Source: an uncultured bacterium (GTDB lineage: Bacteria > Patescibacteriota > Gracilibacteria > BD1-5 > UBA6164). Taken from it: 64,000 nt of DNA. The translations under genes and the position numbers were made by a program. The notes under the pieces are model-generated. The model was not told where the DNA came from and searched no databases. It saw only the letters and a program-made list of their open reading frames with translations. Numbering within the stretch: position 1 is the first letter of the stretch; each line of letters opens with the position of its first letter. The DNA lies in NCBI GenBank assembly GCA_963922865.1, contig CAWUJK010000003.1, positions 1,947 to 65,946 on the forward strand, read 5' to 3'. Of the stretch, positions 17,920-62,327 are shown one piece after another.

Positions 17920-17984
17920 TATATGTTTAATACATATATTTTTTATTAGCTTCATGCTCAGCATTATTTTTTCCATAATAAATT
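17806..17984. repeat. 179-bp direct repeat, copy 1 (der 3' end in use; mltG 3' end is a remnant here)
   Basis: It is base-for-base identical to 19471-19649 by my manual comparison. A further 16-nt match, taaataaaaccaatat, lies at 17991-18006 and 19670-19685. Confidence 0.9.
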
Positions 17985-18184
17985 ATTATTTAAATAAAAC
18001 CAATATCTATTTAAAATGAATTTTAGATATAGCTATGTTTAATAATAAATTAAGTTTAAAGTAGTAATAATAGAAAAGAATTGGTAGATTTATTAGACAA
18101 TATAAAAATATTAATTTTTTATTTGATTTTCATTTATCTTTAATATATAATAAACATTGTAATTTACATATAATGTAAAAAGAA

Positions 18185-18751
18185 ATGTCTAAAGATATTT
18201 TAAAATTATCAGAATCATCAAATTCTGTTTTAACATACTGAGAAATCTATTCCATAATAGAGGCAAATACGCCTTTTTATAAAAAAAGAAAAATAGACCT
18301 GTATGAAAAAAAATGAATTTTAAATAGAATAGTAAAATGATTCTACTGCCTAAATTGAAGAAAATACAATAAATTTGAATTAGTAAATAAAATGTACTCA
18401 CCAAGTTACATATCTTTGTTTTCAGCACTTTATAAGCATAAAATGATTTTTCAATTACCAGAATCTGTATTTTTAATATATACAAGAACATTTGAAAAAT
18501 ATATAGACAATACCCATATAGTATCTAAAAGATTAAAGGAAGATATACTTTTAAATATAGATGGCTTAGTTAATAAGGATAACTACACTATAGCATGTCC
18601 TGAAAGAGCTTTACTTGATACCATTTATTTTTATTGAGAAACATATATTGATAATCTTGATATGATAGACTGGGATAAAACTATTAGGCTATCTAAAATA
18701 TATAATAAAAAAACTCAAACAATAGTTAAATCCTACATTTCTAAATTGTAA
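18185..18751 (+). CDS. abiEi: AbiEi-like antitoxin / transcriptional regulator (188 aa)
   Basis: ATG 18185 to TAA 18749. It is a small protein immediately upstream of, and 4 nt from, a nucleotidyltransferase-type toxin. The motif PERALLD is typical of AbiEi C-domains. Confidence 0.6.
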
Positions 18752-18755
18752 ATAA

Positions 18756-19463
18756 ATGAATGCGATGATTAGTAAATTTTCAATAGAAAAACATAGGCAA
18801 ATAATGATTAAACTTCTTATTGCCATCTTTAAAGATGATATTTTATGAAAAAATCTAATATTTAAATGATGAACTGCACTATATTTATTTTATAGTTTAG
18901 ATAGATTTTCTACTGATCTAGATTTTGATCTTATTTTTGAAAATTTTGATAATAAGTTAATTATCTCTAAACTAAAACCAATAATGGAAAAATTTGGTAG
19001 TATCAAAGATTTAAGAATTAAAAAACACACTATTTTTTGACTATTGTCTTATTGAGAACTTGAACACAATATAAAAATTGAGATTTCTAAAAGATGAAAA
19101 AGTTGAGGATTTGAATCAAAAAATCTTTTTTGAAAAAATATATTGACTATGAAGTTATGAGATATGACAGCAAATAAATTGATTGCTCTGACTCATAGAA
19201 ATAAGCTTGCTAATAGAGATATTTATGATATATATTTTATTTTTAATAATAATTTACCAATTAATTATAAACTAATAGAAAAAAATACATGATATAAATA
19301 TAAAGACTTTATCCAAATGACAATAAATTTTTTAAAAAAATTACCAAAAAATTACAACATATTAGATTGATTAGGTTTGGTTTTATCTAATACTCAAAAA
19401 AACTTTGTAAAAAAATTGTTAATAGAGGAAACAATTTCTTACCTTTCAATTGAGCAATCATAA
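18756..19463 (+). CDS. abiEii: AbiEii/DUF1814 nucleotidyltransferase toxin (235 aa)
   Basis: The translation reads LIFKGGTALYLFYSLDRFSTDLDFD, an NTase GG...DxD core. ANRDIYDIYF lies downstream. Confidence 0.7.
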
Positions 19464-19470
19464 CTTTGAA

Positions 19471-19649
19471 TTTTCATATAAAAGATATCTTGAAAATAGA
19501 ATAAGAGACAATTTTTGATTTGAAGGTACACCTATAATTATTGAATATAGATGAAGATGAAAAAATAAATGAAAAACTAAATAATATATGTTTAATACAT
19601 ATATTTTTTATTAGCTTCATGCTCAGCATTATTTTTTCCATAATAAATT
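19471..19649. repeat. 179-bp direct repeat, copy 2 (mltG 3' end in use; der 3' end is a remnant here)
   Basis: It is identical to 17806-17984. It contains a promoterless copy of the last 38 der codons. Confidence 0.9.
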
Positions 19650-20593
19650 TTTCAAGTTTTTACATTATGTAAATAAAACCAATATTTAGTTTCTTGATGA
19701 TTTAGGGTTGAATCTATTGTTATATTATTTGGATTTGATATAGGAGTCTTGGGTAATCATAACATAGTTCTAGTATTATACTGAGATTTTTCATTGATAT
19801 ATTTTGATACTACCATCTTGCATTTTTGACTAGTTAGCTTATGTGCATAACATACTGTTATATCTGCTCAAATTTTCCATCCAGAATTTAATCTTTTTTT
19901 TAATATTCCTGCAACAATTCTCTTTTGGGAATTATTTTTTTCTTCTTTCTCAACTATACTAGCTAAATTAATTAGATCATAAATTTCATCATTTGTTAGT
20001 TTTTTTTCACTTAATATTTTTTCATAAACCTTTTTTTCAAAAGTATCAAGTTGTTTTATTACAAGCTCATTGATTTTTAATGGATATTTTAAAGAATATG
20101 TATCAGGATATAAGTATCATTCTAAACTTATAAAATCCTTATCCAAAAATTTATAAAATTTTGTTAAAGCTTCTATTTTACTATTACTATTTACATATTT
20201 TGTATATTCTCATTTTTTTATTAACCCTTTTTTATATAAATATTCATCTATATCATAAATATTCCATCATTCCAATATAGTTAAATTAATTTGCCTTTCT
20301 GCCATAGGATTTTCTAAAGAACTAATTATATTTTCTATATTAGACTCTTTTTTTATTTCAAACCTTCATACTAAAAGTTTGAAGTTTTCTTTGTTGTTTT
20401 TTATGTAGTGTTTTAAAAAATAATAATTTATATCTAGTTTATTAGCTAGATCTTTAACTGTATTTCAAGGTTTTATATCAATAATTTTTTTTGCATCAAT
20501 TAAAATATCATTTTTAAAATTATGATATGAATAAAACAAATAAGAAATTATAATAATAATCAATACACTAAGTAGCCTTGCTATATTTTTCAT
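19592..20593 (-). CDS. mltG: endolytic murein transglycosylase MltG/YceG (333 aa)
   Basis: It has an N-terminal TM segment. The motifs YLYPDTY, LASIVEKE, YNTRTMLGLPKTPISNP and NAEHEANKK are present. Confidence 0.85.
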
Positions 20594-20640: not shown

Positions 20641-20686
20641 ATTTAGCAAATAAAAAAGACTTCTTAGTCTTTTTTATTTGCTAAAT
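20641..20686 (-). terminator. strong intrinsic terminator (20-bp perfect stem) overlapping the last codons of the upstream gene
   Basis: The arms are atttagcaaataaaaaagac / gtcttttttatttgctaaat with a 6-nt loop. A U-run follows on the minus strand. Confidence 0.75.
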
Positions 20687-22944
20687 AAAGCAGGTGGAGA
20701 TATTTGTATATTTGGATTGTATTTTATAACTACTGGATATTTTTTTCCTGTTTTTGAATCTATTTGAACATCTCATCACTCTATTCATCTTCTTAGGTAA
20801 TTTAGATCATATTTTTGAGCTTCATCTAAACTACAGCTATTATTACTATATCAAAGATAAAATGGACATTTAGGAGTTTCTAATCTAGAACCTCATATAG
20901 TATTTTCAGAAAATAGTGAACCATTAATATATAATTGTTTTTTCAATCTATCATAATCTCAACCATTATTTGGTGAAATTTCTCACCAATTTGAATTATA
21001 ACTTATAGCTGATTTATCAGTATAAATTATTGATTTTATTTTTTCTACATTAGGATCTATGTATAAATTTCAACCATTTCATTTATCATCTTTTAACACA
21101 ATTAATCATCATAAATTCAAATTTCATTTTACATAAGCATTAGCTCATAAAATAACAATAGTCTTGTTGTCTCATAAATCTCAGTAAAAATTTTTTATTT
21201 TTTTTGTATGATTCCTATAGTCATAAAACTTTATTCTTCAATTCATCAAATCTATTCAATCTTTATCTGTTTTGATATTTTTTATTTTTTCTATAGCATT
21301 TTTTCTTATATCTTTTTTTAGACTAGATTTAGTTATTTCTCATGCTATATTTTTTACATCTTTATTATCTTGTTCATTATTCAAATCTCTTTGTTTTGAT
21401 TTATCTATATTTGTATTTCAGTAAACTTTAATTCCAAAATTATTTTGAGTATTTGTTTCTCATATACTACTTGATCTGTATAAAACAGATTTTCATTCTA
21501 TTTTATATCATATCCAAGATCTTAAATAAACATTTTTTATGTCATCAATAAATCATTTTGATCATGATTTTAATGTAAATAAACTTTTTATTTTATAATT
21601 TGTTGAATTTACAAAACCATTAACAAAACTATTCAAGCTATTTAATATACTTTTTTCTACTGGATTAATTCTAGCTTTTCAGTCAAATTCATCTTTTTTT
21701 TCTCAGTATTTTTGCAAATATATATATTTTGTAGCTTTTGAAACAAGATTATCACTTCAATATTTTGTTACATTTATACTACCAGATTGATTAGCTCATT
21801 CAACTAATCATTTATCTTGATTTCATGAGAAATTTAGATTGTATAATGGTTTAAAATTAAATTTTATATTAGATCATCACAAAACTAGATTTTGTCTATT
21901 TCATATATTTCAATTTATATCAACTTTTACATTATTTATAGTAAATTTATTTCAGTGTATGGTAGGAGAATATATTTTAAAGTTAAAAGGGTACTCTCCG
22001 TTAGATGATTTTAGAGAATCAAAATTGTTATTTTTTGTTAGTTTATTTGTATAATTTTTATCATTTGGAGTACTTAAGTATATTCAATCTCATATATTAC
22101 TATATTGGTTTCTTCTCAATTTATTTTCAACATCAAATTTAAAATCGATAGTTCTTTTTATAGCTATAGCTGGTATTATTTGATTTCAATAGATATCTTT
22201 AATTATTGCTTTTAACTCATGTACTATTCAGTTTGCTGATTTTCATGAAGTAAAGTCTATAGCTGAATTAAATTCTAGTTTTCCTAGTTTATTACTATTA
22301 GAATATACATTGTATTTATAGGTTTTTGGTAATCAAGCTATACAGTTTTCAGCTTCATCACAAACTTTATTTAATTCTAAAGAATATTCTCTATAAGATC
22401 AACTTGTCCTATCATTATCAACTTTTTTTATGTTTATATTGAATGATTTACCAGATAAATTTATATTATCCATTTTGTTTTTATTATCAAAATTTTCTAT
22501 TTTAGCTTTAAAAACTCATACTCAAGACTGATTTATTCAATAATTTATAGCAACATTAAATTTATCTATTGCCAAAACATTTCATCATAAGCTAGAAGCC
22601 TTTATTGAAGGTGGATCATCATCTCTTCTTTTACAATAAACTTTGTACTGACTTCATAAGTTAATTATCTTTGATGCGAATCTTTTATCAGGACAATTAA
22701 AATTATATCATTTGTTATAAGGTCAATACCAATCTCAAGAGTAATAACCATGATATTCGCATCTAAAACTTCATGAACTAGGTTTATTATTTGATATTGA
22801 ACTAGAGATAGCTTTTTGACCACTATTATTATTTGTAGTGTGACACGCTACATTATTTTTATTCCAACTTTTCCATAAAGCAAAGCTTTGATTTGGTAAA
22901 AACACTAAAACTATCATGACAATTAAACATATTTTTTTATTCAT
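20674..22944 (-). CDS. large secreted hypothetical protein (756 aa)
   Basis: The N-terminus MNKKICLIVMIVLVFLPNQSFA looks like a signal peptide. The N-terminal region is Cys-rich and the rest is Asn/Gly/Lys-rich. Start and stop are in the same frame under code 25. Confidence 0.7.
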
Positions 22945-23156: not shown

Positions 23157-23735
23157 ATGGAAGCTTTTTTAAAAAAAATTGTAGATTGAAATAAGTTTGA
23201 GTTAACTATTGATACTAAGATTTTTAGTAAAGATTTAGTATTAAAGACTTCTTATAATTTTTTAGATTTATGATATTTTTATTTTAAGATGTCTTGAAAC
23301 AATATTGTATTACAGCTTACAAAAAAATCTTGAGATAAAAGAGATTTAGAAGATATCATTTGAGATTTTTCAAGCTCTCTACTTGAGACTTATTTGAGAG
23401 ATAAACTAGAGCGTGATAATAAATCTATCAGAGAAGCTATAGTAGAAAAAGCTATTAATGGTCCTTTGGATGCTAATAATTTTGTTTCTCTTGACACTGA
23501 TAAATGACAAGAAGCTTGAGAACAAACACAGCAAAATCAAATAGACTTTGATAAAGATATAGATGAAATATTAAAAGAGATAGAAAATGATCCAGAGCTA
23601 AAAATAGACGAAGAAGAGATAGAAAAAATATTAAAAGAAATAGAAGAAGAAAGTGAAAGCGAAGCCTCAGCAAAACCTTCTATTAAAATTGATCCAAATG
23701 CTGTAAAAAATGCTAAGAAAAATTTTAAAAAATAA
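23157..23735 (+). CDS. hxsD: HxsD-like protein with acidic C-terminal extension (192 aa)
   Basis: The frame was scanned and is clean. The N-terminal ~100 aa end in SSLLETYLRDKLERD, resembling the LLNDYxLRE signature I recall for the HxsD family. It sits directly upstream of hxsB. Confidence 0.6.
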
Positions 23736-23756
23736 ATTAATATATACTAAGTATTT

Positions 23757-23954
23757 ATGGAAAAACAATATAAAATAGATGGTGATATATATAGTAATGA
23801 AATTATAAATGATGCGATTTCTAGTTTTTCTTGAGTTGCTGATATAAAATATGAAAATAATATGATTTCTATCAGTGCAAGTAATACTTCTGAAGTAGAA
23901 GAGATTTTCAATGAATTTATGAATTATTGTATACATTTAATTAATGAGATATAA
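23757..23954 (+). CDS. small HxsD-like or unknown protein (65 aa)
   Basis: The frame is clean. It ends 2 nt before the hxsB ATG. The C-terminus reads EEIFNEFMNYCIHLINEI. Confidence 0.5.
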
Positions 23955-23956
23955 AA

Positions 23957-25426
23957 ATGTTAGATATAAAAAAAATAAATAATGCAAACACTGATAAAAT
24001 ATGATTTTTTAGGTTCAAAAAATTTGATAAAAATAAGTATTTGATAACAAATGATGCTTGAAAATTTGCTTTTTTGAGTTTGAAAGATTTTGATATTTTT
24101 CTTTCTTGAGAAAAGTTAGAAAAATTAAAAAATTATGATGATTTATTAAAAAAAGGTTTTATCAAAACAGATGATTATAAAGAAAAAATGATATGAAGTG
24201 TTGCACAAAAAAATCATTTTGTATGAGTTGGTCCTACTTTACATATGATAGTCGTTACTCTTAGATGTAATCATAAATGTGAATATTGTCATGCAGCGGT
24301 TGCTCCTATGAGCGCTAAGGAGTTTGATATGAGTAAAGATACAGCTAAAAAAATTGTAGATACTATATTTTATACTAATTCTCCTGCTTTGACAATAGAG
24401 TTCCAAGGGTGAGAAGCTTTAGTTAACTACGAAGTTGTCCAATTTATAGTTGAATACTCTAAACAAAGGGCAGAGCATCTAAAAAAAGAGCTGTCTTTAG
24501 TTATGGTTTCAAATCTTACTTTGATGAGCGAAGAAAAACTGAGTTGGTTACTTGATAATGGTGTAGACGTTTGTACCAGTCTTGATTGAGATGAATTAAC
24601 TCATAATAATAATAGGACTTGATTTGATTGAAATTCTTTTGAAAAAGTTACTTATTGGATGAAAAGAGTTAACGAGGAAAAACAAAAAAGAAATATGTGA
24701 AAAGTTTGAGCCCTTTTAACTGTTACTAAAAAAACTATTCCAAATTATAAAAAAATAATAGATTCTTATATAAAATTGGGTCTTGATTGAATATTTCTTA
24801 GATGGTTAAATCCTTATGGTTTTGCAGCTGCTCAGTTGGATAAACTAGCTTATGAGTCAGATGATTGGATAGATTTTTATAAAAAATCTCTTGATTATAT
24901 TATAGAAATAAATAAAAAATGAACTTTTTTCAAAGAGAGTATAACTTCTGTTTATTTAATGAAGATTTTTAATCCTGTAGATCCGGGTTTTATGGACATA
25001 AGAAGTCCTAGTTGAATAGCTATTTGAGGTGTGGCATATAATTATGATTGAAAAATATACGCTTCTGATGAATCAAGGATGCTTGCTAGGATGTGAGATG
25101 ATGCGTTTTTAATGAGTGATTGAAGCTGAACTCCAGAAGAGAGTTATAGAGAAATGATAAATAGTGATGTAACCAAAGCTTCTGTGCAATCTAGTTGTTT
25201 AGATTGACTTCCTTGATACAATGAGCATGTCTATAAGCCTTATATTGGTGTTGATATCATTCATAATTATAAAGTTGCCTGAAGTTTGTTTAACCCTATA
25301 AAAAAGGATGAAAAGATGAAAATACAAATAGCTATACTTGATTATATATTTGAAAAACTTCAGGATAGTGAAGTTGAGAAAATTTTTATGAGTTGGATAG
25401 CTTGAAAAAATTGAGAAAATGATTAG
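23957..25426 (+). CDS. hxsB: radical SAM maturase, HxsB-like (489 aa)
   Basis: The whole frame was scanned. The triad is CNHKCEYC and the SAM motif is EFQGGEA (second G = TGA). The long C-terminal domain and the position next to the HxS-repeat peptides match the His-Xaa-Ser system architecture. Confidence 0.8.
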
Positions 25427-25444
25427 TATATAATATATAGATAT

Positions 25445-25795
25445 ATGCCGCATAAAAAAAAGAAAATTTTTCCAAAAATTAAAAAGAAATTAAAATGATT
25501 TTTAACTGATGAGAGTTGAAAAATTAGTAAAAAAGATGCATTGGGTTTAGCTGCTGGGAGTGTTTTATTGTGAGGTGCTGGAGAGGTATGAGCTCGAAAT
25601 TATTGAAATCATATAAGTGGTTGATTTAATCTACAAAGTGGTCACCTAAATGCATCTGCTTCTGCTATTTGTAATCATGCTAGTTGACTAATTAATGGGC
25701 ACTATAGTGTTACTCCTAGTGGAACTGCTAAAATTTCTGGACATGCTAGTCATGGTAGTCATGGTAGTCATGGTAGTCATGGTAGTAGGTGGTAG
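25445..25795 (+). CDS. hxsA: His-Xaa-Ser repeat precursor peptide 1 (116 aa)
   Basis: I translated it codon by codon. It has a Lys-rich leader. The core contains HIS, HAS, HYS, HAS and four HGS triplets, and ends HGSHGSHGSHGSRW. Confidence 0.85.
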
Positions 25796-25836: not shown

Positions 25837-26316
25837 ATGTGAAATAAAAAAACCAAAATTTTTCCAAAAATTAAAAAGAAATTAAAATGATTTTTAACTG
25901 ATGAGAGTTGAAAAATTAGCAAAAAAGATGCTTTATGATTGGCTACTGGTAGTATTTTATTAAGTTGAGCTGATGAAATTAGCGCTGGTCATTCAAACCA
26001 TGGTAGTCATAGTAGTTGACCTGGTTGACATTTGAATCAAGGTCACGCTAGTTGAAATTTAAGATCGTGACATGTTAGTGCTAATCCTGGTGCAGTAACT
26101 AAGACATCACATGCTAGTTGAATTGTGAATGGTCATTATAGTTCAACCCCTAATTGATGAGTTTATGATCCTGCTCATGCTAGTGGTTATGGTAATTGAT
26201 GACATTTAAATCAGTGAGCTGTTAATTGAAGACTTCATGCTAATCATGGTAATCATAGTAATCATGGTAGTCATGCTAGTCATGGAAGTCACGGTAGTCA
26301 CGGTAGTAGATGGTAA
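25837..26316 (+). CDS. hxsA: His-Xaa-Ser repeat precursor peptide 2 (159 aa)
   Basis: I translated it codon by codon. The leader is almost identical to that of peptide 1. It has about 12 HxS triplets plus HxN variants and the same HGSHGSHGSRW C-terminus. Confidence 0.85.
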
Positions 26317-50686: not shown

Positions 50687-51976
50687 ATGGAAAACAAACA
50701 AAACCTACTATCCAAAGAAAAAACCCAAAAACAAAATAGAATATGGGTTAGAATAGCTTCAGCTTGTAACAACAAGTGTATTTTTTGTTTGGACAGTGAC
50801 GCACAAAACTGAACATTTCCAGATGAAAATAAAATAAAAAAAGAAATAAAAAATTGATATAAAAACTGATTTGAAAATAGAGTAATTATATCTTGATGAG
50901 AAGCAAGTATAAATCCCAAGTTTCATGAATATATAAGATACTCAAAACAAATTTGATATGATAGAGTACAAACAGTTACAAATTGAAATATGTTTTTTCA
51001 TGAAAAATTTTGTGAAAAAGTTTTTGCAGCTTGATTGGAAGAAGTTACTTTTTCTTTTCATTGACATAATTCAAAACTTCATGATTATCTTGTAGCTACA
51101 CCTTGAGCTTTTAAAAAGTCTTTAAAATGACTTATTTATATCAAAAAACATTTTCCAAAAATTATTATAAATATAGACATAGTTGTAAATAAAGTAAATG
51201 TTAGATATTTACCAGAAATCGTTAAATTTTTTATGAAATTAGGGGTATATGAATTTGATATATTGCAAATAATACCATTTTGAAGATGATTTAAAGAACA
51301 TAAAAATACTCTTTTTTATAATATATCAAAAAATATAAAATATTTGCAAGATACTTGGAAATTATCTAAAATACCCTGAATGTATATGTGGACAAATAGA
51401 TTTCACAGCGAAGCATTTGAATGATTTGAAGATCTTATACAAGATCCAAGAAAAATAAAATCAGAAGTTATGTGAGAAAGTAGGGAAATGTTTGAACCAT
51501 TTATAAAATCAAAATGAAAAATAAAACCAGAATGTTTTTGAGAGAGATGTAAATATTGTTTCATAAACCAATATTGTCATGGTTATTTAGAAAGTATTAA
51601 AAACCCTTTATTACTAAAAAATAATAATCAAAAAAAAGATTATATTATAGTAAATTGAGAAGAATTTCCAAGTCAAGTTTATGAAAAATATTGAGAAACA
51701 TGAGAAGACTTTAAAAATTATTTGAAAAGTTTGAAAAAAGATATAATAAATATCCCAAAATGTTTATGATGAACTTGAGTGTATCAAAATTATAACGATT
51801 TAATAAGAAAAAGAACCCTAGAAGACTATACCAGTAAATATATAAAAAATTTATATAGAAAAAAATCTTTGAGATGTGAGAATTGTAAATATTATAATAA
51901 TTGTGAATGAATACATCTAAATTTTATAAGAAGTTATTGATTTGATATTTTAGAGCCAATTTTATGAAACAATTAG
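50687..51976 (+). CDS. radical SAM protein with two C-terminal Cys clusters (429 aa)
   Basis: The motifs are CNNKCIFC, SGGEA, ERCKYCFINQYC and RCENCKYYNNC. Confidence 0.8.
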
Positions 51977-52181: not shown

Positions 52182-53291
52182 CTATAATATTACAAATGAA
52201 ATATTATTTTTCTTGTATTCTTTTTTATATTCTTCTAAATATGAAAAAGCTATATATTTTTGTTTTTCTAATTTTAGAAAACATCTAGTTATAAAATTTG
52301 TTTTGTAATCAAAATTTAAATCTAAATTACTTTTATTTTTTAATAAAAAACTATATTTATGGTTTGTAAAAAACTTAATTAATATATTTTTATTTAATTT
52401 TTGTAAAAGGAATAATTTAATTATATTAAATATAATCTTTTTAAATAAGTATCTTTTGTAATTTTTATAAAATAAAATTAAATTAATATTTTGAGTTTTT
52501 ATATTTCTAAATGAAAAATATGGAATTAGTTTACTTTTAAAATATAAATTTCAATCCAAGTATATCAAGTTAAAAATATTTTTCAGTACCTTATATGAAA
52601 AATAATCTTGCTTATCTCACAATTCATCAAAATCTAACTTTTTGTAAACTCAATTAAATTTAATTATTTCAGAAAAATCATAAATAGTATTATTTCATGT
52701 TGTTATATTTCTTGTTTGTAAGATAATGATTTTTCAATTTTGTATACAAAACTCTATATTTTGTGGAAAGTTTAATAATGTTTCCAATTTTTTTCATAAT
52801 AATTCTAATTCTTTTTTTAAACTAAAATTTAAGTTATATTTTTTATTGCCTCTCCCAGAAGTTACATCATCATATTTTTTTCAAATTTCATAGAATCATT
52901 TTTTTAATATATTTTTAGGCGATCGAGAGAAGTACACTCAGTATATTTCTGTTTCTATAAATTCTTGTATTATTACTGATAACAAAATTTTATTTTGTCA
53001 TCAAAACCATTTTGTGTTATCATTATCTGTTAATATTTTTTTTATTTCTTGTATGTCATGTGGTATTATACTATTGAAAAATCAAGCATAACTAATGTTA
53101 GTTCAATCTTCTAATTTAAAACTTGGTCTTAAAATATATTTTTTGTTTCTTTTTAATAGATTAAAGTCAAAATTTTTTGTTTCTTGTATGTTTATTATAA
53201 ACGTTTTTGGAATTAAAAAATCATTTTTGTATAGTTTAATAATATTACTTGCTTTATTTCAAACATCTTTTTTATTTCAAAATACTTTCAT
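52182..53291 (-). CDS. PEP/pyruvate-binding (PPDK_N-type ATP-grasp) domain protein (369 aa)
   Basis: The whole frame was scanned. The motifs are GNKASNIIKLYKNDFLIPKTFII, VIIQEFIETEIYGVYFSRSP and ILQTRNIT. Confidence 0.55.
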
Positions 53292-53355
53292 TTTTTGTTT
53301 ATATTAATATAATTTAGCTTATTATATAATAAAAAATAAATTTTAAAATAATTTT

Positions 53356-54300
53356 ATGGCAAATATATGATACATACAAGTAAACAGGCATTGCAATAAT
53401 TGATGCCATTTTTGTAGTAACCCAAGTAATGGAAATAATATTAGCTATAATCGATGAATAGAGCTTATAGATGATTTTATAGAAAAAAAATACAATTGAA
53501 TAATATTTACATGATGAGAACCAACATTATCACCAGACCTAGCAAAATGGATAGAGTATGCCAACCAAAAAGGCATACACTCTAGAATGATATCAAATGG
53601 AATGATGTGTGCAAACCCAGATTTTATACAAAAATTAGCAGATTCTTGACTAGAATTAATACACTTTTCAGTTTACTCTTGTTATGAAAAAGTACATGAT
53701 TTTTTAACAGATACCCCATGAAGTTGGAAAAAACTTATGATGAGTATAACAAACGCACTAAACTCTTGAATAAGAGTACAAATAAATACAGTTATAAATC
53801 ATTATAATGAAACACACCTTGATAAAACTATTAAATTTCTATCAAAAACATTCCCTCCAATAAAACATTTTGTTTGGAATAACTTAGATCCAGAAATGAT
53901 GAGAAAAACAGATATAGCACGGTCTACTTTACCAAATTTTGATAATTTTAAACCATCTTTGAATAGAGCTATGGATTATCTTGATTCACTGTGAAAAACA
54001 TATAGAGCAGAAAAAATGCCACTTTGTTATATAAGATGACATGAATGGTGTTCTACAGAAACAAGAAAAATAGTAAAAGATGAGGAAAGAATAGTACATT
54101 TTCTAGATTTCAGAGAAACTATTCATGAAGTAGAGTGGTGACATGAAAAATTACCTGAATGTAGTGAATGTGATCTGAACAGTATATGTTCTTGAGTTTA
54201 TGAATATGAAAGATATTATAATTTTGTAAAAGTATACCCACAAAAGCTAGAAAAAAAGGAAAAACAAGAAATTATTGATAAAATAAAATGAACTTTTTAG
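53356..54300 (+). CDS. radical SAM protein (314 aa)
   Basis: The motifs are CNNGCHFC, TGGEP and the tail ECSECDLNSIC. Confidence 0.8.
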
Positions 54301-54329
54301 CTTTTATAAATTAATAAAAGCTTTTTATT
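54299..54329 (+). terminator. terminator hairpin after the last radical SAM gene
   Basis: The 9-bp stem agcttttat/ataaaagct is followed by a T-run. It overlaps the 3' end of the convergent gene. Confidence 0.5.
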
Positions 54330-55642
54330 AAATTTACAATCATACTTATAATAATTTTGAATATTTTATCTTCTAGAAAAAAAGTAATCATAAATCATAA
54401 TATTATATATGGAGAAAATGAAAAAGTATTTAATATTTTTATTTTAGTTGTATTACTATATCATTTTGTTTTTCTATTTTTATGATATAAATTAACTATA
54501 TCATAACACTTCTTTATGATTTCTAATTCTTCTTTATCTATTGTTCTACTAATATTATTAAAAAATTTTTTTGGACTGGGAAATAAAATAGCATCTTTTT
54601 TATGTTTTATGCTTTCTGTTTCATAATGTCATAATATATATTGAGTACCAAAAGCATTAACTAAAAACTCTTTATCAACAATATCACCCTCTTTTAAATC
54701 CTTAATATTTATATAATTTGTTTCAGCAATACCAAAAGTGATTTTATAACTATAAAAAAGAATTTTAAAGATTATGTAAATAGCAATATACAAAGTGAAT
54801 ACCCTGATTAAAAGACTAGTAATTTCCTCTTTATTACTAAAAAATTCTCATAAAATAAACCCATTAAGCCCAACAAATAATATCAAAATAAATATAGTTT
54901 CAATATTGTTTTGCTTTGTTTTAAAAATTTTAGATATTGTACTTTTTACTCTATTAATTATTATTACAATGAGATAATAAGCAATTAAGAAAATAATAAT
55001 GCTAGCAACTATTAAATAAACTCAATAATTTTCTACAATATTTTTTAATAAACTGAAATTTTCAGCATTTTCAAATACTCAATTTAATAAATAAATCCTA
55101 CTCAACCTAATACTCACAAAAATTATCAAAAAAACAACTATCCATTTTAAAATAACAATTAAATTATTACCCCCTTTGTTATTTTTGTACACTTTCCATT
55201 TTTCCCTCAAATCATTAACAACATTTTTCCATAAATCCCTAGCAAAGCTTCTTTGAAAAAGACACTTACCAAAATAAAACCACAAGAAATACCCAATCAA
55301 ATAGGCAATAGTGACAAGAGCAATATTTCAAATAAAAGCAACAACCCCGATATAGGGAATAAATAAACTCAAAACAAGCAGATATTTAGCGTCTCATGCA
55401 GCCCATATACCAAAATAATATAAAATAAAACTAACAAAAAGAGTGATAAAAATTTGTAGAACAAACATTATATAGTTTATTTCTGGAAAACTAAAAAATA
55501 TATAAACATAATAAACAGGAACAATCATTAACAAGTAAACTAAAAGCTTATTTGGAATAATTTTGAATTTCAAATCAGAAATAATAATTTTATAGTTTAT
55601 ATATAAGAAAGCAATAGCCATTAAGTATAAAATATATTGCAT
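54311..55642 (-). CDS. A24 (prepilin-peptidase-like) aspartic membrane peptidase with a long C-terminal extension (443 aa)
   Basis: It joins track ORFs 55394 and 55079 in one frame. ISDLKFKIIPN and GIWAAGDAKYLLVL resemble the two Asp motifs. It has many TM segments. Confidence 0.45.
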
Positions 55643-55698
55643 TTAGTTTTGAAAATTATATAATTATCTTTAGTAAAATTATATCAAAATATATATTT

Positions 55699-56814
55699 AT
55701 GCAAAATTTAAAATACTATGTTTTATGAACAAAAAACTCACCACTTTTGAAGCAATACCTAGATAAGTTTTACAATAAACTTTTAGAAAATCTAAAAACG
55801 ATAAAAAACTCTAAAATTGGTAATAAAACCCTCTCAGAAAACATAGAAAAATTACTTAAAAATAATCAAAACAGAAAATTTATTTTAGACTGAGATAATT
55901 CATCACTCATAAACTCTATAATAATAGACAAAAACATAGACTCTATAAAAAAATTAGAGCAAGAAATAACAATATTTTTAGAAGAATGACCACAAAGCGG
56001 AAAACTCACTCAAAACAAATGAATAAAAATAGCATGAACAAATATAAGACTTACCATAAAAGACAATAATCCATATAGATTTCACCAAGCACACCCTGAA
56101 CATGCAATTAATTGATGAGTATTATGATGGGGAGAAAAAACTCAAAGCAATTGGTTAGAAGTTTATGAAAAAACCTTCAAACTATTAAAAAAAGTTGATG
56201 AATGAATATATGATGAACTAAATGAAATAATAACAAAAATAATACCACTGTGAACAGCAAGATCAATGCACAACTCATCAAGCTATAAAGAGTGCATATG
56301 ACATCTATACCTTTGATACACCATAGATAGCAGCAGTCCAGAAATTAATAATTTAGAAGCAATCATACACGAATCATCACACAATAAATTAAACCTAATC
56401 ATGCAATTTGACCCTGTAGTATTAAACGATAAACAAGAAAAATATTATTCAGCAATAAGACCAGATGCTAGACATATGCACGGTATACTTTTGGGTTATC
56501 ACGCATTCGCTCCAACCATGTATATTATGATGAAAACCTATGTAGATTGAATTTTTTGAAATGACCAATGATGGTTAGAAAAAATAGTACTTTATTATAT
56601 GAAAGTAAAATTTTTGCAAAAAGTCATGAAAAAACATGCTAAATTTACCAAACTATGAAATGAAATAAATGATGAAATGGATTATGTAGTATCCCAAATG
56701 GATATACTTTTTAAAAAATTATCACCCAGTAAGCAAATAATACTTAGAGCAAAACAAAGACAAACACAACATTTTTTGGAAGTTAATCAAAACTACCCAA
56801 AACTAGAATATTAG
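55699..56814 (+). CDS. HExxH-motif peptide-modification family protein (371 aa)
   Basis: It contains IIHESSHNKLNL with a downstream HAFAP. Its size and context resemble the HExxH proteins that accompany rSAM/SPASM maturases. Confidence 0.55.
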
Positions 56815-60547: not shown

Positions 60548-61393
60548 TTATTCTAGATAACTATTTATAAAATTTACTATTTTATCAGAAATTATATGTG
60601 TACTTCATCTTTTTTGATTGAAAAATTCTTCCATATCTTCATGAACTATAACTGGAGTTGTCTCTATTAATCAAGGCTTCCAAGGCTCATCCACATATAT
60701 ATCATTTATAGAGTAAGGCTCTCCTCATCTTATATATCTTGAGAATCTAGATATAAATCCATCAGGGGATGTGTATAGCTTACTACCTTGTTTAAATTCT
60801 TCTTTTATCTTCTTTATAGCCTTAAAAATTATTTCTAATTGTTTTGAAGAATAGCTGCCTGGTATAGATATTTTTTTTCATTTTTCATTTATCATGAATA
60901 TAGCATCTCACTCTTTTTTTATATCTATATTATTTTTTTCTCATAAAGTAATTACTTTTTTTATATATCTATCTCTATCTTCTATATTATCCTTAGCTTT
61001 TTCTGTTTCAATTTCTTTATATATATCTATATTTTTAATATCTATATCAAGTAATTTTTTTATTTCATTTGATTCATCTTTTATGGAGTAATCATTTTTA
61101 ATTTCTTCTAAAACCCTTTTAAACAATTCATTTATGCGACCATTTTGTTCCCAACTTAATTTTTCATTTAAAAATCTTTTATAATATTTATTCAAATTTT
61201 TAAGCTCTTCTAGTTGTGATTTTAATAAATTTTTCTTATCACAATCTTTTTCATTATTTATTTTGTATATTAATTCATTTTGAGCCATTTTCATTAATGA
61301 TAAAGATCATTTACTGTTATTTTTTTCTAAATCAAGATTTTCAGCTAAATGATTTAAATCTTTATAGCATGATTTGTTAGCTATTTCTCACAT
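60548..61393 (-). CDS. hypothetical protein, paralog A (281 aa)
   Basis: I checked the upstream extension of track ORF 60941..61294 codon by codon. The N-terminus is MGEIANKSCYKDLNHLAENLDLEKNNSKGSLS. Confidence 0.65.
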
Positions 61394-61493: not shown

Positions 61494-62327
61494 TTATTTT
61501 AGAAATTCATTTATCAAATTTATGATTTCTTGAGTTTTATCATGAGTATCAATTTTTCTTCATTTTAGAAAAATATCTCTTATTTGTTTATTTGTTAATA
61601 CAGTTTCTTCATCCCAAGAAGGCCGCCAATCATCTTCTATTCAAATATTATTATATCTTTTGTGATGAGTTTCTATATCAATGAAAGATTTAGGAAATTC
61701 TAAATATGAATATATAAATTTATTATCATAAGTATATAGCTTCCCATTTGGATACTGCTTTTTTATTTTATGTATTATTTTTAAAATAGTCTCTATTTGT
61801 TTTTTGTTATAATAACTTATATAAAACCCAATACCTTTATCATTTATCATATATCTTCCTGTGGAATCATACTCTATTTTTATCCCATACTTTTCGCCCA
61901 ATCTTATAAATTCAAGTTCATAATTTATTTTTTCTTTTTCGATATTTTTTTTAATATTAGCAATTATATCCTTTTTCATGTTAAGAGTATCTTTTATCTC
62001 TTCCAATTCATAATCTATACTATGACCTTTTTCTATTTGTTTTAATATTTTTTCAAATAAATAAACTAATCTTGTGTTTTGGTGTTTATTTAATTTTCTA
62101 TTTAAAAAATCTCTATAAGGAGAATCTAGTTTTGATAAAACATCTAGTTGATTTTGTAAAATATTTCTTTTATCACAATTATTTCCATCTTTTATTTTTT
62201 TTATTAAAAGATTTTTGGAACGCTGTAATATTGACAGAGATCAATTACTATTTTTTTCCTTTAAATCAAGATTTTCAGCAGAAGCCAAAATATCTGAGTT
62301 ACATGATATACTTTCTATGTTTCACAT
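61494..62327 (-). CDS. hypothetical protein, paralog B (277 aa)
   Basis: I checked the upstream and downstream extensions of track ORF 61641..62006 codon by codon. The N-terminus MGNIESISCNSDILASAENLDLKEKNSNGSLS is homologous to paralog A. Confidence 0.65.

What the first reader, a model, noticed from the sequence alone, without database searches (positions are those of the whole stretch)
52182..56814. Cluster-edge accessory set: PPDK_N-type ATP-grasp protein, A24-like membrane peptidase with a ~200-aa extension, and an HExxH protein
A minus-strand gene with the PEP-utilising-enzyme nucleotide-binding signature (VIIQEF...GVYFSRSP...ILQTRNIT) lies convergent with the rSAM at 50687. After the last rSAM come two more genes:
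- A polytopic protein with prepilin-peptidase-like Asp motifs (ISDLKFKIIPN, AAGDAKYL).
- A 371-aa HExxH protein (IIHESSHNKL).

HExxH proteins are recurrent partners of rSAM/SPASM maturases. A24 peptidases cleave short basic leaders after Gly, and the precursors have Lys-rich leaders with several Gly. The A24-like protein could therefore be the leader peptidase or exporter.
Basis: inference. Interest (0 to 1): 0.65.

Follow-up and report, generated by a model that had tools for sequence, protein, structure and literature searches.

The report
Pilin-type peptidase recruited to His-Xaa-Ser system
At the edge of a giant radical-SAM gene island in a Gracilibacteria genome (UGA read as glycine) sits a divergent relative of pilin-processing membrane proteases that is always found with His-Xaa-Ser peptide-maturation genes in many bacterial lineages, making it the best candidate for the still-unidentified enzyme that trims these peptides before export.

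Summary
The three genes are real, but only under genetic code 25 (UGA=Gly). All three HMM calls pass curated cut-offs: PPDK_N 43.6/27, Peptidase_A24 29.9/26.5, TIGR04267 αKG-HExxH 59/40.

The island (about 23.1–56.8 kb) is an expanded His-Xaa-Ser (HXS) system: HxsD, HxsB, two HxS-repeat precursors and 17 rSAM-type genes.

**A24-like protein (443 aa):** the A24 core is about 125 aa. The extension is about 320 aa: 5–6 TM helices plus a 117-aa cytoplasmic domain. It belongs to an uncurated family.
- In 31 species-level Gracilibacteria loci, 23/29 have an rSAM at its 3′ end and 16/29 have HExxH divergent at its 5′ end.
- In standard-code bacteria (GC 26–72%), 41/51 have an rSAM immediately adjacent, always co-directional.
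- One high-GC operon carries HxsB, precursor, A24-like, rSAMs and HExxH.

**HExxH protein:** an Fe/αKG peptide hydroxylase type, not a zincin protease.

**PPDK_N protein:** a sporadic insertion (2/31 loci).

**Leader cleavage site:** the appealing "KG|F" prepilin-like site is not conserved (Gly in 50/97 homologs). Only the Gly of FLxxE[SE]G is universal (95/97), and a Sec-like signal follows it.

The leader-peptidase role is therefore well supported by context but remains inferred. An exporter role has no support. Whether these genomes carry a separate PilD could not be tested.

The parts
54311..55642 (-). A24-like polytopic membrane protein, 443 aa under code 25. The A24 core is aa 1-125. The extension has 5-6 further TM helices and a 117-aa Lys-rich soluble domain (aa 296-412).
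   Evidence: Pfam Peptidase_A24 29.9 bits against GA 26.5. More than 160 full-length homologs. Conserved synteny with rSAM genes. Topology estimate. AF2 models with pLDDT about 73.
55574..55576 (-). Codon of Asp23, the first putative catalytic Asp, in the motif S-D-L-K-x-K-I-I-P-N.
   Evidence: Invariant in 57 Gracilibacteria homologs and in a 7-sequence cross-lineage alignment.
55391..55396 (-). Codons of Gly83-Asp84 in the GxGD-like motif W-A-A-G-D-A-K-Y. Gly83 is encoded by TGA.
   Evidence: A-G-D-x-K is invariant across all lineages. Public code-4 translations show it wrongly as AAWDAKY.
55699..56814 (+). αKG-HExxH-type peptide hydroxylase homolog, 371 aa, transcribed divergently from the A24-like gene with a 56-nt gap.
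   Evidence: NCBIfam TIGR04267 59 bits against cut-off 40. 209 homologs at 49-73% identity. Divergent partner of the A24-like gene in 16 of 29 loci. Present in the distant L096 operon.
56368..56382 (+). HESSH motif, His224-His228.
   Evidence: H224, E225, H228, N229 and K230 are invariant in 42 homologs, together with R254-P-D256-x-R258. The same motifs are conserved in L044, L041 and L096.
52182..53291 (-). Stand-alone PPDK_N-type ATP-grasp (nucleotide-binding) protein, 369 aa. It is inserted in reverse orientation between two rSAM genes that are adjacent in other genomes.
   Evidence: Pfam PPDK_N 43.6 bits against GA 27. NCBIfam PEP-synthase and Rph models. PDB rifampin phosphotransferase ATP-grasp domains. 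Homologs only in L006/L016 and L007/L028. No swivel-domain partner in the window.
53356..54300 (+). rS314: an HxsC-like radical SAM protein, convergent with the A24-like gene with a 10-nt gap.
   Evidence: Pfam Radical_SAM 85.8 bits. TIGR03977 HxsC 101.7 bits, below its cut-off of 267.9. 64-80% identical orthologs sit next to the A24-like gene in about 20 genomes.
50687..51976 (+). rS429: an HxsC4-like radical SAM protein, the second conserved neighbour of the A24-like gene.
   Evidence: NF038332 HxsC4 135 bits, below its cut-off of 500. 66-78% identical orthologs in 21 of 31 loci.
25445..25795 (+). HxS-repeat precursor A, 116 aa: Lys-rich N-terminus, FLTDESG motif, Sec-like h-region and VxA, then a C-terminal HGSHGSHGSHGSRW.
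   Evidence: Translation. NCBIfam HxsA3 and HxsA4 hits are below their cut-offs. About 97 homologs.
25499..25519 (+). Leader motif F-L-T-D-E-S-G (aa 19-25) of precursor A. It ends in the only universally conserved leader Gly, which is the proposed processing site.
   Evidence: Gly in 95 of 97 homologs. The Gly before the motif (KG|F) is conserved in only 50 of 97. The motif is also present in standard-code precursors.
25837..26316 (+). HxS-repeat precursor B, 159 aa, with the same leader as precursor A.
   Evidence: P0254.
23157..25426 (+). HxsD (23157-23735), a conserved 65-aa ORF (23757-23954) and HxsB (23957-25426). This is the left core of the system.
   Evidence: TIGR03976 56.9 bits against cut-off 50. 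TIGR03978 486.8 bits against cut-off 370. The small ORF is conserved in L021, L026 and L044.
20674..22944 (-). 'BIG': a 756-aa secreted protein with no known domain. It is a lineage-specific partner that normally follows HExxH and the A24-like gene; here it lies at the opposite edge of the island.
   Evidence: No Pfam or PADLOC hit. Homologs of 461-1252 aa in 21 of 31 Gracilibacteria loci. Absent from the standard-code loci.

Best explanation
The three genes belong, to different degrees, to an expanded His-Xaa-Ser (HXS)-type radical-SAM maturation system in a code-25 Gracilibacterium.

Shown:
- The 443-aa protein is a divergent A24 (GxGD-type aspartyl) membrane peptidase homolog. Both catalytic Asp motifs are invariant.
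- It has a conserved C-terminal extension of 5-6 TM helices and a soluble domain that is probably cytoplasmic.
- Its family is a core member, embedded in the operon, of HxsB/HxsC-like rSAM systems in many lineages. Those systems include ones encoding HxsA3/A4-type precursors.
- The 371-aa protein is an αKG-HExxH peptide-hydroxylase homolog. It is the usual divergent partner of the A24-like gene in Gracilibacteria.
- The PPDK_N protein is an occasional inserted accessory.

Inferred mechanism:
1. The precursors are held in the cytoplasm by their conserved ~25-aa Lys-rich N-terminal extension (…KKLKxFLTDESG) while the rSAM enzymes modify the His/Ser/Gly-rich core. The HExxH enzyme would add hydroxylation, for example of His, Asp or Asn.
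2. The A24-like enzyme has its active site at the cytoplasmic membrane face. It cleaves the extension, most likely after the invariant Gly of FLxxE[SE]G.
3. This leaves an N-terminus (KISKKDAL-GLAAGAVLLSG-VDEVSA) that is a textbook Sec signal peptide.
4. The matured peptide is then exported and released by signal peptidase I.
5. The cytoplasmic domain of the extension would dock the leader or the maturase complex.

The PPDK_N protein probably supplies an ATP-dependent (phosphoryl-transfer-type) tailoring step in the few strains that carry it.
For: System identity:
- HxsD 56.9/50 and HxsB 486.8/370 bits, plus two precursors ending in HGSHGSHGS repeats.

A24 homology:
- Pfam score above GA.
- D23 and A-G-D84-A-K are invariant in 57 homologs and across three lineages.
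- Both Asp residues are predicted at the cytoplasmic face.

Linkage:
- In Gracilibacteria, 23 of 29 loci have an rSAM as 3′ neighbour and 16 of 29 have HExxH as 5′ neighbour.
- The compact HOT-871 system runs HxsD, HxsB, precursor, rSAMs, A24.
- In standard-code metagenomes, 41 of 51 A24-like genes have an rSAM immediately adjacent, always co-directional, and 27 of 42 long loci carry HxsB.
- L096 carries HxsB, precursor, A24-like, rSAMs and HExxH in one operon. L112 has A24-like followed directly by a precursor.

Leader:
- The E-[SE]-G Gly is conserved in 95 of 97 homologs and is followed by an n/h/c signal-peptide-like stretch.

Literature:
[quoted passage not shown] The protease is unknown and 'additional host factors' are invoked (PMC13128918).

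HExxH:
- TIGR04267 scores above its cut-off. Family members hydroxylate His, Asp and Gln in RiPPs (PMC12636437).

Family distinctness:
- An exhaustive profile search found only 272 representatives at 50% identity, so the family is well separated from ordinary prepilin peptidases.
- No pilus genes lie beside the A24-like gene, and pilins in these genomes have quite different, canonical signals.
Against: - There is no biochemical evidence. Proteolysis, the substrate and the cleavage site are all inferred.
- The proposed site (E-S-G|K) does not match any known A24 substrate rule. There is no basic residue at -2, no hydrophobic stretch directly after the Gly and no Glu at +5.
- The A24 assignment is marginal. 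Pfam scores are 29.9 and 28.1 bits in two members, below GA or absent in others. There was no PDB sequence hit and no significant fold hit. The A24 core has low AF2 confidence (pLDDT 50-65).
- Many standard-code operons with an A24-like gene show no HxS peptide within 10 kb. They encode a different ~240-aa candidate substrate without an obvious conserved Gly on the cytoplasmic side.
- The canonical four-gene proteobacterial HXS system works without such a gene.
- I could not exclude that this is also the cell's only prepilin peptidase.
Confidence: 0.55

Rival explanations
1. Housekeeping prepilin peptidase. The A24-like gene is simply the cell's PilD/TadV equivalent for its many type IV pilins and pseudopilins, and it lies next to the rSAM island by historical accident or shares a dual role.
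For: Gracilibacteria encode many canonical pilins (Sieber 2019). Published genome analyses list only a single pilD. JGI annotates some family members as 'CpaA'. No second A24 gene was seen in about 788 kb of sampled Gracilibacteria DNA, but that sample is biased toward these loci.
Against: Adjacency to rSAM genes is conserved across at least 31 Gracilibacteria species. The gene is embedded co-directionally inside rSAM operons of unrelated standard-code bacteria. It is never next to pilB, pilC or pilin genes. It lacks the N-terminal DiS-P-DiS/methyltransferase domain of PilD. It carries a family-specific ~320-aa extension. The profile recovers only 272 representatives from 1.84 billion proteins.
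Confidence: 0.08
2. Non-proteolytic membrane scaffold or gate. The protein uses its A24-like fold and extension to tether the maturase complex or the precursor at the membrane, or to hand the product to Sec or another exporter, without cleaving it.
For: The extension is large, conserved and makes up most of the protein. The A24 core scores marginally. The precursors already have a plausible signal peptidase I site. In E. coli HXS, export seems to need the other Hxs proteins.
Against: Both catalytic Asp residues and the G-D-x-K motif are strictly invariant across very divergent members, whereas almost nothing else is. That pattern is what one expects of an active enzyme. There is no transporter or ATPase signature. 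Fold similarity to ABC exporter TM domains is non-significant (E at least 0.6, TM about 0.1).
Confidence: 0.15
3. The A24-like peptidase processes a different substrate of the system, not the HxS peptides. Candidates are the BIG secreted protein in Gracilibacteria, or in other bacteria the ~240-aa 'TTYYPAPYGGY…CC[RK]I[QN]' proteins encoded upstream of HxsD-like and HxsB genes.
For: BIG co-occurs in 21 of 31 Gracilibacteria loci. Many standard-code operons with the A24-like gene lack a nearby HxS peptide but encode 1-3 paralogous ~240-aa proteins with an N-terminal hydrophobic segment.
Against: BIG is absent outside Gracilibacteria, and in the window it has an ordinary Sec signal. HxS precursors sit directly next to the A24-like gene in L096 and L112. 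The only element common to the window, L026, L041, L044, L045, L082, L096, L112, L115 and L118 is the FLxxEEG-type precursor.
Confidence: 0.12
4. The HExxH protein, not the A24-like protein, removes the leader, either as a zincin-type protease or by oxidative backbone cleavage as shown for PflC and PosC.
For: The HExxH motif is invariant. An αKG-HExxH enzyme can cleave the peptide backbone oxidatively, and hydrolytically without its leader (PMC12636437).
Against: HExxH is missing from about 40% of Gracilibacteria loci that keep the A24-like gene, and from nearly all standard-code operons (3 of 42). It therefore cannot be the general processing enzyme. Characterised family members are mainly β-hydroxylases. 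The known cleavage is C-terminal at an ARMD motif that is absent here.
Confidence: 0.07

Closest known systems
HXS (His-Xaa-Ser) system, HxsA/B/C/D (Haft's TIGR03976-03979; antiphage function shown by Li et al., Nat Commun 2026, PMC13128918)
   Same: Genuine HxsD and HxsB equivalogs are present. Precursors have C-terminal His-Xaa-Ser repeats and an N-terminal export signal. HxsC-like rSAMs are present. The effector undergoes N-terminal processing plus rSAM modification before export.
   Different: The characterised system has four genes and is 99.7% proteobacterial. [quoted passage not shown] Here the island is about 33 kb with 17 rSAM-type genes and short HxsA3/A4-like precursors with an FLxxE[SE]G leader. 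No gene reaches the HxsC equivalog cut-off. Added components are the A24-like peptidase, HExxH, carbamoyltransferases, kinases and BIG. No defence function has been tested.
Type IV prepilin / preflagellin peptidases (MEROPS family A24: PilD, TadV/CpaA, FlaK, PibD)
   Same: The Pfam A24 domain scores above GA. The two Asp motifs are present (D…IPN and G-D-x-K). The core is polytopic with both Asp residues at the cytoplasmic face. Like TadV and FlaK, it lacks a methyltransferase domain.
   Different: The sequence match is marginal, and there was no detectable match to the FlaK structure. The protein has a family-specific ~320-aa extension. It is never linked to pilus, T2SS or flagellar genes. 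The candidate substrates lack class III signal features: Gly is not directly followed by the hydrophobic segment, there is no Glu at +5 and no basic residue at -2.
αKG-HExxH peptide hydroxylases (IPR026337/TIGR04267: ChlH, BpmH, PflC/PosC)
   Same: The domain model scores above its cut-off. HExxH and the downstream RPDxR / G..G.HA motifs are conserved. The gene is encoded with rSAM peptide maturases. Known substrates include His and Asp, which are abundant in these precursors.
   Different: This is a stand-alone 371-aa protein with an N-terminal ~150-aa region of unknown role. It is only about 26% identical to the nearest non-Gracilibacteria homolog seen. Its target residue and chemistry are unknown.
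ATP-grasp (PPDK_N) domain of PEP synthase, PPDK and rifampin phosphotransferase
   Same: The nucleotide-binding signature is present (…IIQEF…GVYFS…ILQTRNIT). Pfam PPDK_N scores above GA. The best PDB matches are Rph ATP-grasp domains.
   Different: Only the ATP-grasp core is present, corresponding to profile positions of about 95-340. There is no swivel phospho-His domain and no substrate-binding domain, in the protein or elsewhere in the window. In CP042461 a separate PEP-utilizers gene sits next to the homolog. The C-terminal 170 aa are low-complexity and unassigned.
GxGD intramembrane aspartyl proteases acting on signal peptides (signal peptide peptidase, presenilin)
   Same: This is a 'works like' comparison only. 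Both are polytopic aspartyl proteases with a GxGD-type motif that cut signal-sequence-bearing substrates at or in the membrane.
   Different: No sequence or fold relationship was tested or claimed. Those enzymes cut within the membrane after signal peptidase has acted, whereas the site proposed here is cytoplasmic and upstream of the h-region.

Membership tests
Peptidase family A24 (type IV prepilin peptidase-like) | Match to the family profile (PF01478) at or above the curated gathering score | tested here: met
   29.9 bits against GA 26.5, over aa 19-115 aligned to profile positions 10-103 of 104. The match is marginal. Related standard-code members score 28.1, 19.7 and 16.4 bits or give no hit.
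Peptidase family A24 (type IV prepilin peptidase-like) | Two catalytic Asp residues in the conserved motifs (D-x4-[IL]-P-[ND] and G-x-G-D-x-K) | tested here: met
   D23 (SDLKFKIIPN) and D84 (AAGDAKY) are invariant in 57 homologs and in a cross-lineage alignment where little else is invariant.
Peptidase family A24 (type IV prepilin peptidase-like) | Polytopic membrane topology with the active-site Asp residues at the cytoplasmic face | tested here: inconclusive
   A Kyte-Doolittle and positive-inside estimate gives about 10 TM segments and places D23 and D84 on the cytoplasmic side. The AF2 helices are consistent with this. The method is crude and the core has pLDDT of only 50-65.
Peptidase family A24 (type IV prepilin peptidase-like) | Fold similarity to a solved A24 enzyme (FlaK) | tested here: inconclusive
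   No PDB sequence hit with a single sequence or a profile. Foldseek gave a best E of 0.6-7 and TM of about 0.1 for two models. The models are of moderate quality.
Peptidase family A24 (type IV prepilin peptidase-like) | Substrates with a class III signal peptide: Gly at -1 immediately before a hydrophobic segment, usually with Glu at +5 | tested here: not met
   The KG|FLTDE Gly is conserved in only 50 of 97 precursors. The universal Gly (E-S-G|K) is followed by a charged KISKKD stretch. Pilins of the same lineage carry canonical G|FTLIE signals.
Peptidase family A24 (type IV prepilin peptidase-like) | Genomic association with pilus, T2SS, competence or archaellum genes | tested here: not met
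   Neighbours are rSAM, HExxH and BIG genes in 31 Gracilibacteria loci, and rSAM operons in 54 metagenome loci. No pilus gene is in the window.
Peptidase family A24 (type IV prepilin peptidase-like) | Endoproteolytic activity on a leader peptide | not testable with these tools
   This needs biochemistry or genetics.
αKG-HExxH peptide β-hydroxylase (TIGR04267 / IPR026337) | Match to the domain model above the curated cut-off | tested here: met
   59 bits against cut-off 40, E=5.9e-16, over aa 157-274. NCBI names homologs 'HEXXH motif-containing putative peptide modification protein'.
αKG-HExxH peptide β-hydroxylase (TIGR04267 / IPR026337) | Invariant HExxH and downstream conserved motifs | tested here: met
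   H224, E225, H228, N229, K230, R254, P255, D256 and R258 are invariant in 42 homologs. The same motifs occur in L041, L044 and L096 and in a weak alignment to the rSAM-fused PDB chain 22nu_A (E=2.5).
αKG-HExxH peptide β-hydroxylase (TIGR04267 / IPR026337) | Encoded with radical SAM peptide maturases and a precursor | tested here: met
   It lies at the island edge in the window, occurs in 18 of 31 Gracilibacteria loci and is part of the L096 operon.
αKG-HExxH peptide β-hydroxylase (TIGR04267 / IPR026337) | Fe(II)/α-ketoglutarate-dependent hydroxylation activity | not testable with these tools
Activity needs an assay.
PEP-utilising enzyme, PPDK_N ATP-grasp domain (PF01326) | Match to the profile above the gathering score | tested here: met
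   43.6 bits against GA 27. The best stretch is only aa 150-201 aligned to profile 261-314 of 328. NCBIfam models extend the match to aa 46-221.
PEP-utilising enzyme, PPDK_N ATP-grasp domain (PF01326) | Complete phosphotransfer architecture: swivel phospho-His domain plus acceptor-binding domain | tested here: not met
   No PEP-utilizers hit in the protein. No homolog of the L007 PEP-utilizers protein anywhere in the window.
HXS system (HxsA/B/C/D) | HxsB and HxsD equivalogs | tested here: met
   TIGR03978 486.8 bits against cut-off 370. TIGR03976 56.9 bits against cut-off 50.
HXS system (HxsA/B/C/D) | HxsC equivalog | tested here: not met
   The best scores are 101.7 bits (53356-54300) against cut-off 267.9, and HxsC4 135 bits (50687-51976) against cut-off 500.
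HXS system (HxsA/B/C/D) | HxsA-type effector with His-Xaa-Ser repeats | tested here: inconclusive
   The repeats are plainly present (HGSHGSHGSHGS). The HxsA3 and HxsA4 models score 38.9, 26.6 and 17.3 bits, below their cut-offs of 65 and 55, and there is no canonical HxsA hit.
HXS system (HxsA/B/C/D) | Compact four-gene cassette HxsD-B-C-A | tested here: not met
   About 30 genes over about 33 kb, whereas more than 99.8% of described systems are four-gene systems.

The most novel reading that the evidence does not exclude
A previously uncurated subfamily of prepilin-peptidase-like (A24) aspartyl membrane proteases, carrying a dedicated 5-6-TM and cytoplasmic-domain extension, is the leader-processing and export-licensing enzyme of HxsA3/A4-type His-Xaa-Ser systems across many bacterial phyla. 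This would be the first A24 protease acting in rSAM peptide or protein maturation. It would also be a concrete candidate type for the unidentified N-terminal processing step of HXS antiphage effectors. In Gracilibacteria it anchors a hypervariable, 17-rSAM island that makes heavily modified His-rich surface peptides.
Probability: 0.4. Interest if true: 0.8.

Novelty: new variant of a known kind. Interest (0 to 1): 0.62.

Why it matters
The HXS system was recently shown to block phage DNA entry. How its effector is trimmed and exported is an explicit open question: the cleavage is not ordinary signal-peptide removal and no protease is known.

This analysis shows that a large, widespread set of HXS-like systems carries its own membrane aspartyl peptidase homolog inside the operon. 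That makes the question directly testable with standard-code operons, such as the ones in L096 and L112, that can be expressed in E. coli.

The result also extends the A24 family beyond pilins, flagellins and pseudopilins, and gives a functional handle on one of the largest gene islands in reduced CPR genomes.

It also exposes an annotation trap. Public protein sets often translate these genomes with code 4, which turns the catalytic G-D motif into W-D and hides the family.

Tried and rejected
1. Table-11 translation gave only fragments. I rejected it in favour of code 25.
2. I tested the 'KG|FLTDE' site as a prepilin-like cleavage site and rejected it. Gly occurs there in only 50 of 97 homologs.
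3. I considered 'DAL-G|L' at the start of the h-region as the site. That Gly is absent from distant precursors whose clusters still contain the A24-like gene (L044, L045, L096, L112), so it is not general.
4. I looked for structural confirmation of the A24 fold or a fold for the extension. Two AF2 models (pLDDT about 73) and two PDB Foldseek searches gave nothing significant. PDB sequence and profile searches were also empty.
5. Exporter idea: there are no transporter domains, and the only fold hits were non-significant matches to ABC exporter TM domains.
6. I searched the window for a swivel (PEP-utilizers) partner for the PPDK_N protein and found none.
7. PADLOC defence models gave no hits for the three proteins or BIG.
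8. Promoter and terminator scans were uninformative in 21% GC DNA: 53 sites found against 50.6 expected.
9. I looked for a second, canonical PilD in about 788 kb of Gracilibacteria loci and found none, but the sample is biased and the result is not decisive. The literature reports 'PilD' in CP042461 without naming the gene.
I used the code-4 database copy (P0001), and then a correctly translated homolog (P0003), instead.
11. Literature searches for A24 or prepilin peptidases in RiPP, rSAM or Hxs systems found nothing relevant.

Full report
**Genetic code and observation.** Under table 11 the finding's region contains only short ORF fragments. The window is about 21% GC. Removing TGA from the stop set raises the number of ORFs of at least 100 aa from 27 to 96. 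TGA codons fall at positions that are Gly in universally conserved proteins: AspRS RRDH-GG and Der ES-G-TTRD. The window therefore uses code 25 (UGA=Gly), the code of Gracilibacteria. All homologs later retrieved come from that lineage.
- a 369-aa protein at 52182-53291(-);
- an rSAM at 53356-54300(+);
- a 443-aa polytopic protein at 54311-55642(-);
- a 371-aa HExxH protein at 55699-56814(+).

DUF2130 and LysRS follow, which marks the end of the island.

**HMM tests.**
- PPDK_N scores 43.6 bits against GA 27, and Peptidase_A24 scores 29.9 bits against GA 26.5.
- The HExxH protein has no Pfam hit. It does hit NCBIfam TIGR04267, now named 'aKG-HExxH-type peptide beta-hydroxylase', at 59 bits against cut-off 40.
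- The PPDK_N match covers only the ATP-grasp core. The best PDB sequence matches are the ATP-grasp domains of rifampin phosphotransferases.
- The A24 match covers aa 19-115, so the extension is about 320 aa rather than about 200.

**What the island is.** The left part encodes HxsD (56.9 bits, cut-off 50), a small conserved ORF and HxsB (486.8 bits, cut-off 370). It also encodes two tandem precursors of 116 and 159 aa that end in HGSHGSHGSHGSRW. These are followed by rSAM-type genes; I count 17 in the whole island by CX3CX2C motif or HMM. There are also two HemN-like genes, two carbamoyltransferases, an APH-type kinase, an oxidoreductase and an AAA_14 ATPase. This is a greatly expanded His-Xaa-Ser system. 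The four-gene proteobacterial HXS system was recently shown to be an antiphage system. [quoted passage not shown]

**The A24-like protein is a conserved family.**
- A protein search returned 160 hits, nearly all 430-465 aa, 40-60% identical and full length, from Gracilibacteria.
- Many database copies are translated with code 4. Their catalytic motif therefore reads AAWDAKY instead of AAGDAKY.
- D23 (in SDLKxKIIPN) and the A-G-D84-A-K motif are invariant.
- A hydropathy and positive-inside estimate gives about 10 TM segments. It places both Asp residues at the cytoplasmic face and predicts a 117-aa Lys-rich cytoplasmic domain between TM9 and TM10.
- AF2 models (pLDDT about 73) agree on the helices. 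They gave no significant PDB fold match, and PDB sequence and profile searches were empty.
- An exhaustive profile search of 1.84 billion representatives found only 272 hits at E of 1e-3 or better. The family is therefore well separated from ordinary prepilin peptidases.

**Co-occurrence in Gracilibacteria.** I examined eight loci reached through individual homologs and 35 species-representative loci, all re-annotated under code 25. The pattern is stable. Of 31 loci with a full-length gene:
- 23 of 29 with a 3′ neighbour have an rSAM there, always convergent. It is usually the ortholog of 53356-54300 (64-80% identical), followed by the ortholog of 50687-51976 (66-78% identical).
- 16 of 29 with a 5′ neighbour have the HExxH gene there, always divergent.
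- 21 loci contain a homolog of the window's 756-aa secreted protein at 20674-22944 ('BIG'), normally right after HExxH.

In the closed genome HOT-871 the whole system is compact: HxsD, small ORF, HxsB, precursor, several genes, rSAMs, A24-like, BIG. The content of the rest of the island varies widely between genomes and can include NifH/NifD-like genes, a Trp halogenase, FkbO-like genes and methyltransferases. The PPDK_N gene has homologs in only two of these genomes. In the window it is inserted in reverse orientation between two rSAM genes that are adjacent everywhere else. In CP042461 its homolog is accompanied by a separate PEP-utilizers (swivel) gene that the window lacks.

**Co-occurrence outside Gracilibacteria.** One genome hit was a high-GC, standard-code bacterium. 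Its ~400-aa A24-like protein has the same architecture and sits next to three HxsB-like genes. A metagenome scan with a cross-lineage alignment returned 205 relatives, and I analysed the best 80 loci (GC 26-72%, standard code).
- The ~385-aa gene lies inside operons such as HxsD-like, HxsB, HxsD-like, HxsC-like rSAM, A24-like, HxsC4-like rSAM, rSAM.
- Of 51 genes with a scorable neighbour, 41 have an rSAM immediately adjacent. Every such neighbour is co-directional: 33 of 33 upstream and 28 of 28 downstream.
- 40 of 42 loci longer than 8 kb contain rSAM genes and 27 contain HxsB.
- In L096 one operon reads rSAM, rSAM, HxsB, HxS precursor, A24-like, rSAM, rSAM, rS314-type, rS429-type, HExxH-domain protein. 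In L112 the precursor directly follows the A24-like gene.
- No NCBIfam model recognises any of these A24-like proteins, and Pfam A24 is borderline for them.
- I found no paper linking A24 peptidases to rSAM, RiPP or Hxs systems.

**The leader.** I retrieved 100 candidate precursor homologs; 97 could be anchored on the FLxxE[SE] motif and compared.
- The consensus N-terminus is KKIFPKIKKKLK-x-FLTDES-G-KI[ST]KKDAL-G-L[AS]xGAxLLxGxxExxA, followed by a His/Ser/Gly-rich core and the HxS repeats.
- The window's 'KG|FLTDE' resembles a prepilin site (Gly at -1, Glu at +5). That position is Gly in only 50 of 97 sequences.
- The Gly after DAL is conserved in close relatives. It is replaced by Lys, Thr or Ser in distant precursors whose clusters nevertheless contain the A24-like gene.
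- Only the Gly in FLxxE[SE]G is universal, at 95 of 97. It is also present in all standard-code precursors seen.
- Everything after it has the form of a Sec signal peptide: a basic n-region, a hydrophobic stretch of about 12-14 residues, then VxA.
- Pilins of the same lineage have canonical signals such as KKGFTLIELM. The precursors are therefore not class III signal peptides.

**Proposed mechanism.** The context shows that the A24-like protein works with the HxsB/HxsC-type maturases. Strict invariance of the two Asp motifs, in a family where little else is invariant, argues that it is an active peptidase. I infer that it removes the conserved ~25-residue N-terminal extension at the cytoplasmic membrane face, after the invariant Gly. 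That would expose an ordinary Sec signal only once the cytoplasmic rSAM (and HExxH) modifications are complete. The cytoplasmic domain of the extension would recognise the leader or the maturase complex.

This fits the unexplained N-terminal processing in the E. coli HXS system, although that system has no such gene. The steps from 'linked' to 'cleaves here' are inference. The site does not follow known A24 rules. Some operons with the gene lack an HxS peptide within 10 kb and encode a different candidate substrate.

**The HExxH and PPDK_N proteins.**
- Members of the HExxH family are Fe/αKG hydroxylases of His, Asp, Gln and Asn side chains in RiPP precursors, and one type also cleaves the backbone oxidatively (PMC12636437).
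- The HExxH and RPDxR motifs are invariant here and in the L096 homolog.
- The gene is absent from about 40% of Gracilibacteria loci and from most standard-code operons. It is therefore a frequent tailoring accessory rather than the general processing enzyme.
- The PPDK_N protein is a truncated, stand-alone ATP-grasp domain without a phospho-carrier partner in this genome. It is a sporadic addition with an unknown acceptor.

**What remains open.** I could not scan whole genomes. Sieber et al. report 'PilD' and many pilins in CP042461 without naming the gene. The operon embedding in unrelated bacteria makes a purely housekeeping role unlikely, but a dual role is not excluded. Nothing supports an exporter function.

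**Verdict.** The A24-like gene is the most interesting of the three. It defines an uncurated, widespread family that is a core component of HxsA3/A4-type and related rSAM systems, and it is a specific, testable candidate for their leader-processing step.

Noticed in passing
whole window: The window uses genetic code 25 (UGA=Gly) at about 21% GC. TGA is very frequent, for example 30 in the 600-codon AspRS gene. Public protein collections often hold these genes translated with code 4 (Trp for Gly), which corrupts motifs such as the catalytic G-D of the A24-like protein.
   Followed up: yes
window 23157-56814: This ~33-kb island holds HxsD, HxsB, two tandem HxS-repeat precursors and 17 rSAM-type genes (by CX3CX2C motif or HMM), including two HemN-like genes. 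It also holds two carbamoyltransferases, an APH-type kinase, a GFO/IDH/MocA oxidoreductase and an AAA_14/DUF4143 ATPase. Island content differs strongly between related genomes, while both edges (BIG on one side, A24-like and HExxH on the other) are conserved.
   Followed up: partly
window 20674-22944 (-): 'BIG' is a 756-aa Sec-signal protein with no Pfam or PADLOC domain. Its homologs (461-1252 aa, about 30-39% identical) accompany the A24-like and HExxH pair in 21 of 31 Gracilibacteria loci but are absent from standard-code relatives. It could be a surface anchor or partner for the matured peptides.
   Followed up: partly
window 23757-23954 (+): A 65-aa ORF between HxsD and HxsB is conserved in the same position in L021, L026, L044 and L046. 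It may be the 'HxsD-like' small protein type.
   Followed up: no
window 17795-17987 and 19460-19652: A 193-nt direct repeat (97% identical) overlaps the 3' end of der. It brackets a two-gene cassette: an AbiEi-like gene at 18185-18751 and an AbiEii toxin at 18756-19463 (Pfam 78.5 bits). It looks like an inserted type IV toxin-antitoxin module with target duplication.
   Followed up: partly
L049, L058, L064, L073, L077 (metagenome loci), just upstream of HxsD-like/HxsB: Standard-code operons containing the A24-like gene but no HxS peptide encode 1-3 paralogous 240-300-aa proteins. Each has an N-terminal hydrophobic segment, a conserved 'TLTTYYPAPYGGY' motif and a C-terminal '…M(L/I)CC(R/K)(I/F)(Q/N)' tail. 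This is a possible second substrate class for these rSAM and A24-like systems.
   Followed up: no
window 60548-61393 (-) and 61494-62327 (-): Two tandem paralogous genes of 281 and 277 aa share an N-terminal 'MG.I…SC…L…AENLDL.(E/K)KNS.GSLS' region. There is no Pfam hit for the one tested.
   Followed up: no
L007/L028 (CP042461.1) next to the A24-like gene: In the closed Gracilibacteria genome of Sieber et al., the PPDK_N homolog (242 aa) is directly adjacent to the A24-like gene. A separate 334-aa PEP-utilizers (swivel-domain) protein precedes it, forming a split phosphotransfer pair that the window lacks.
   Followed up: partly
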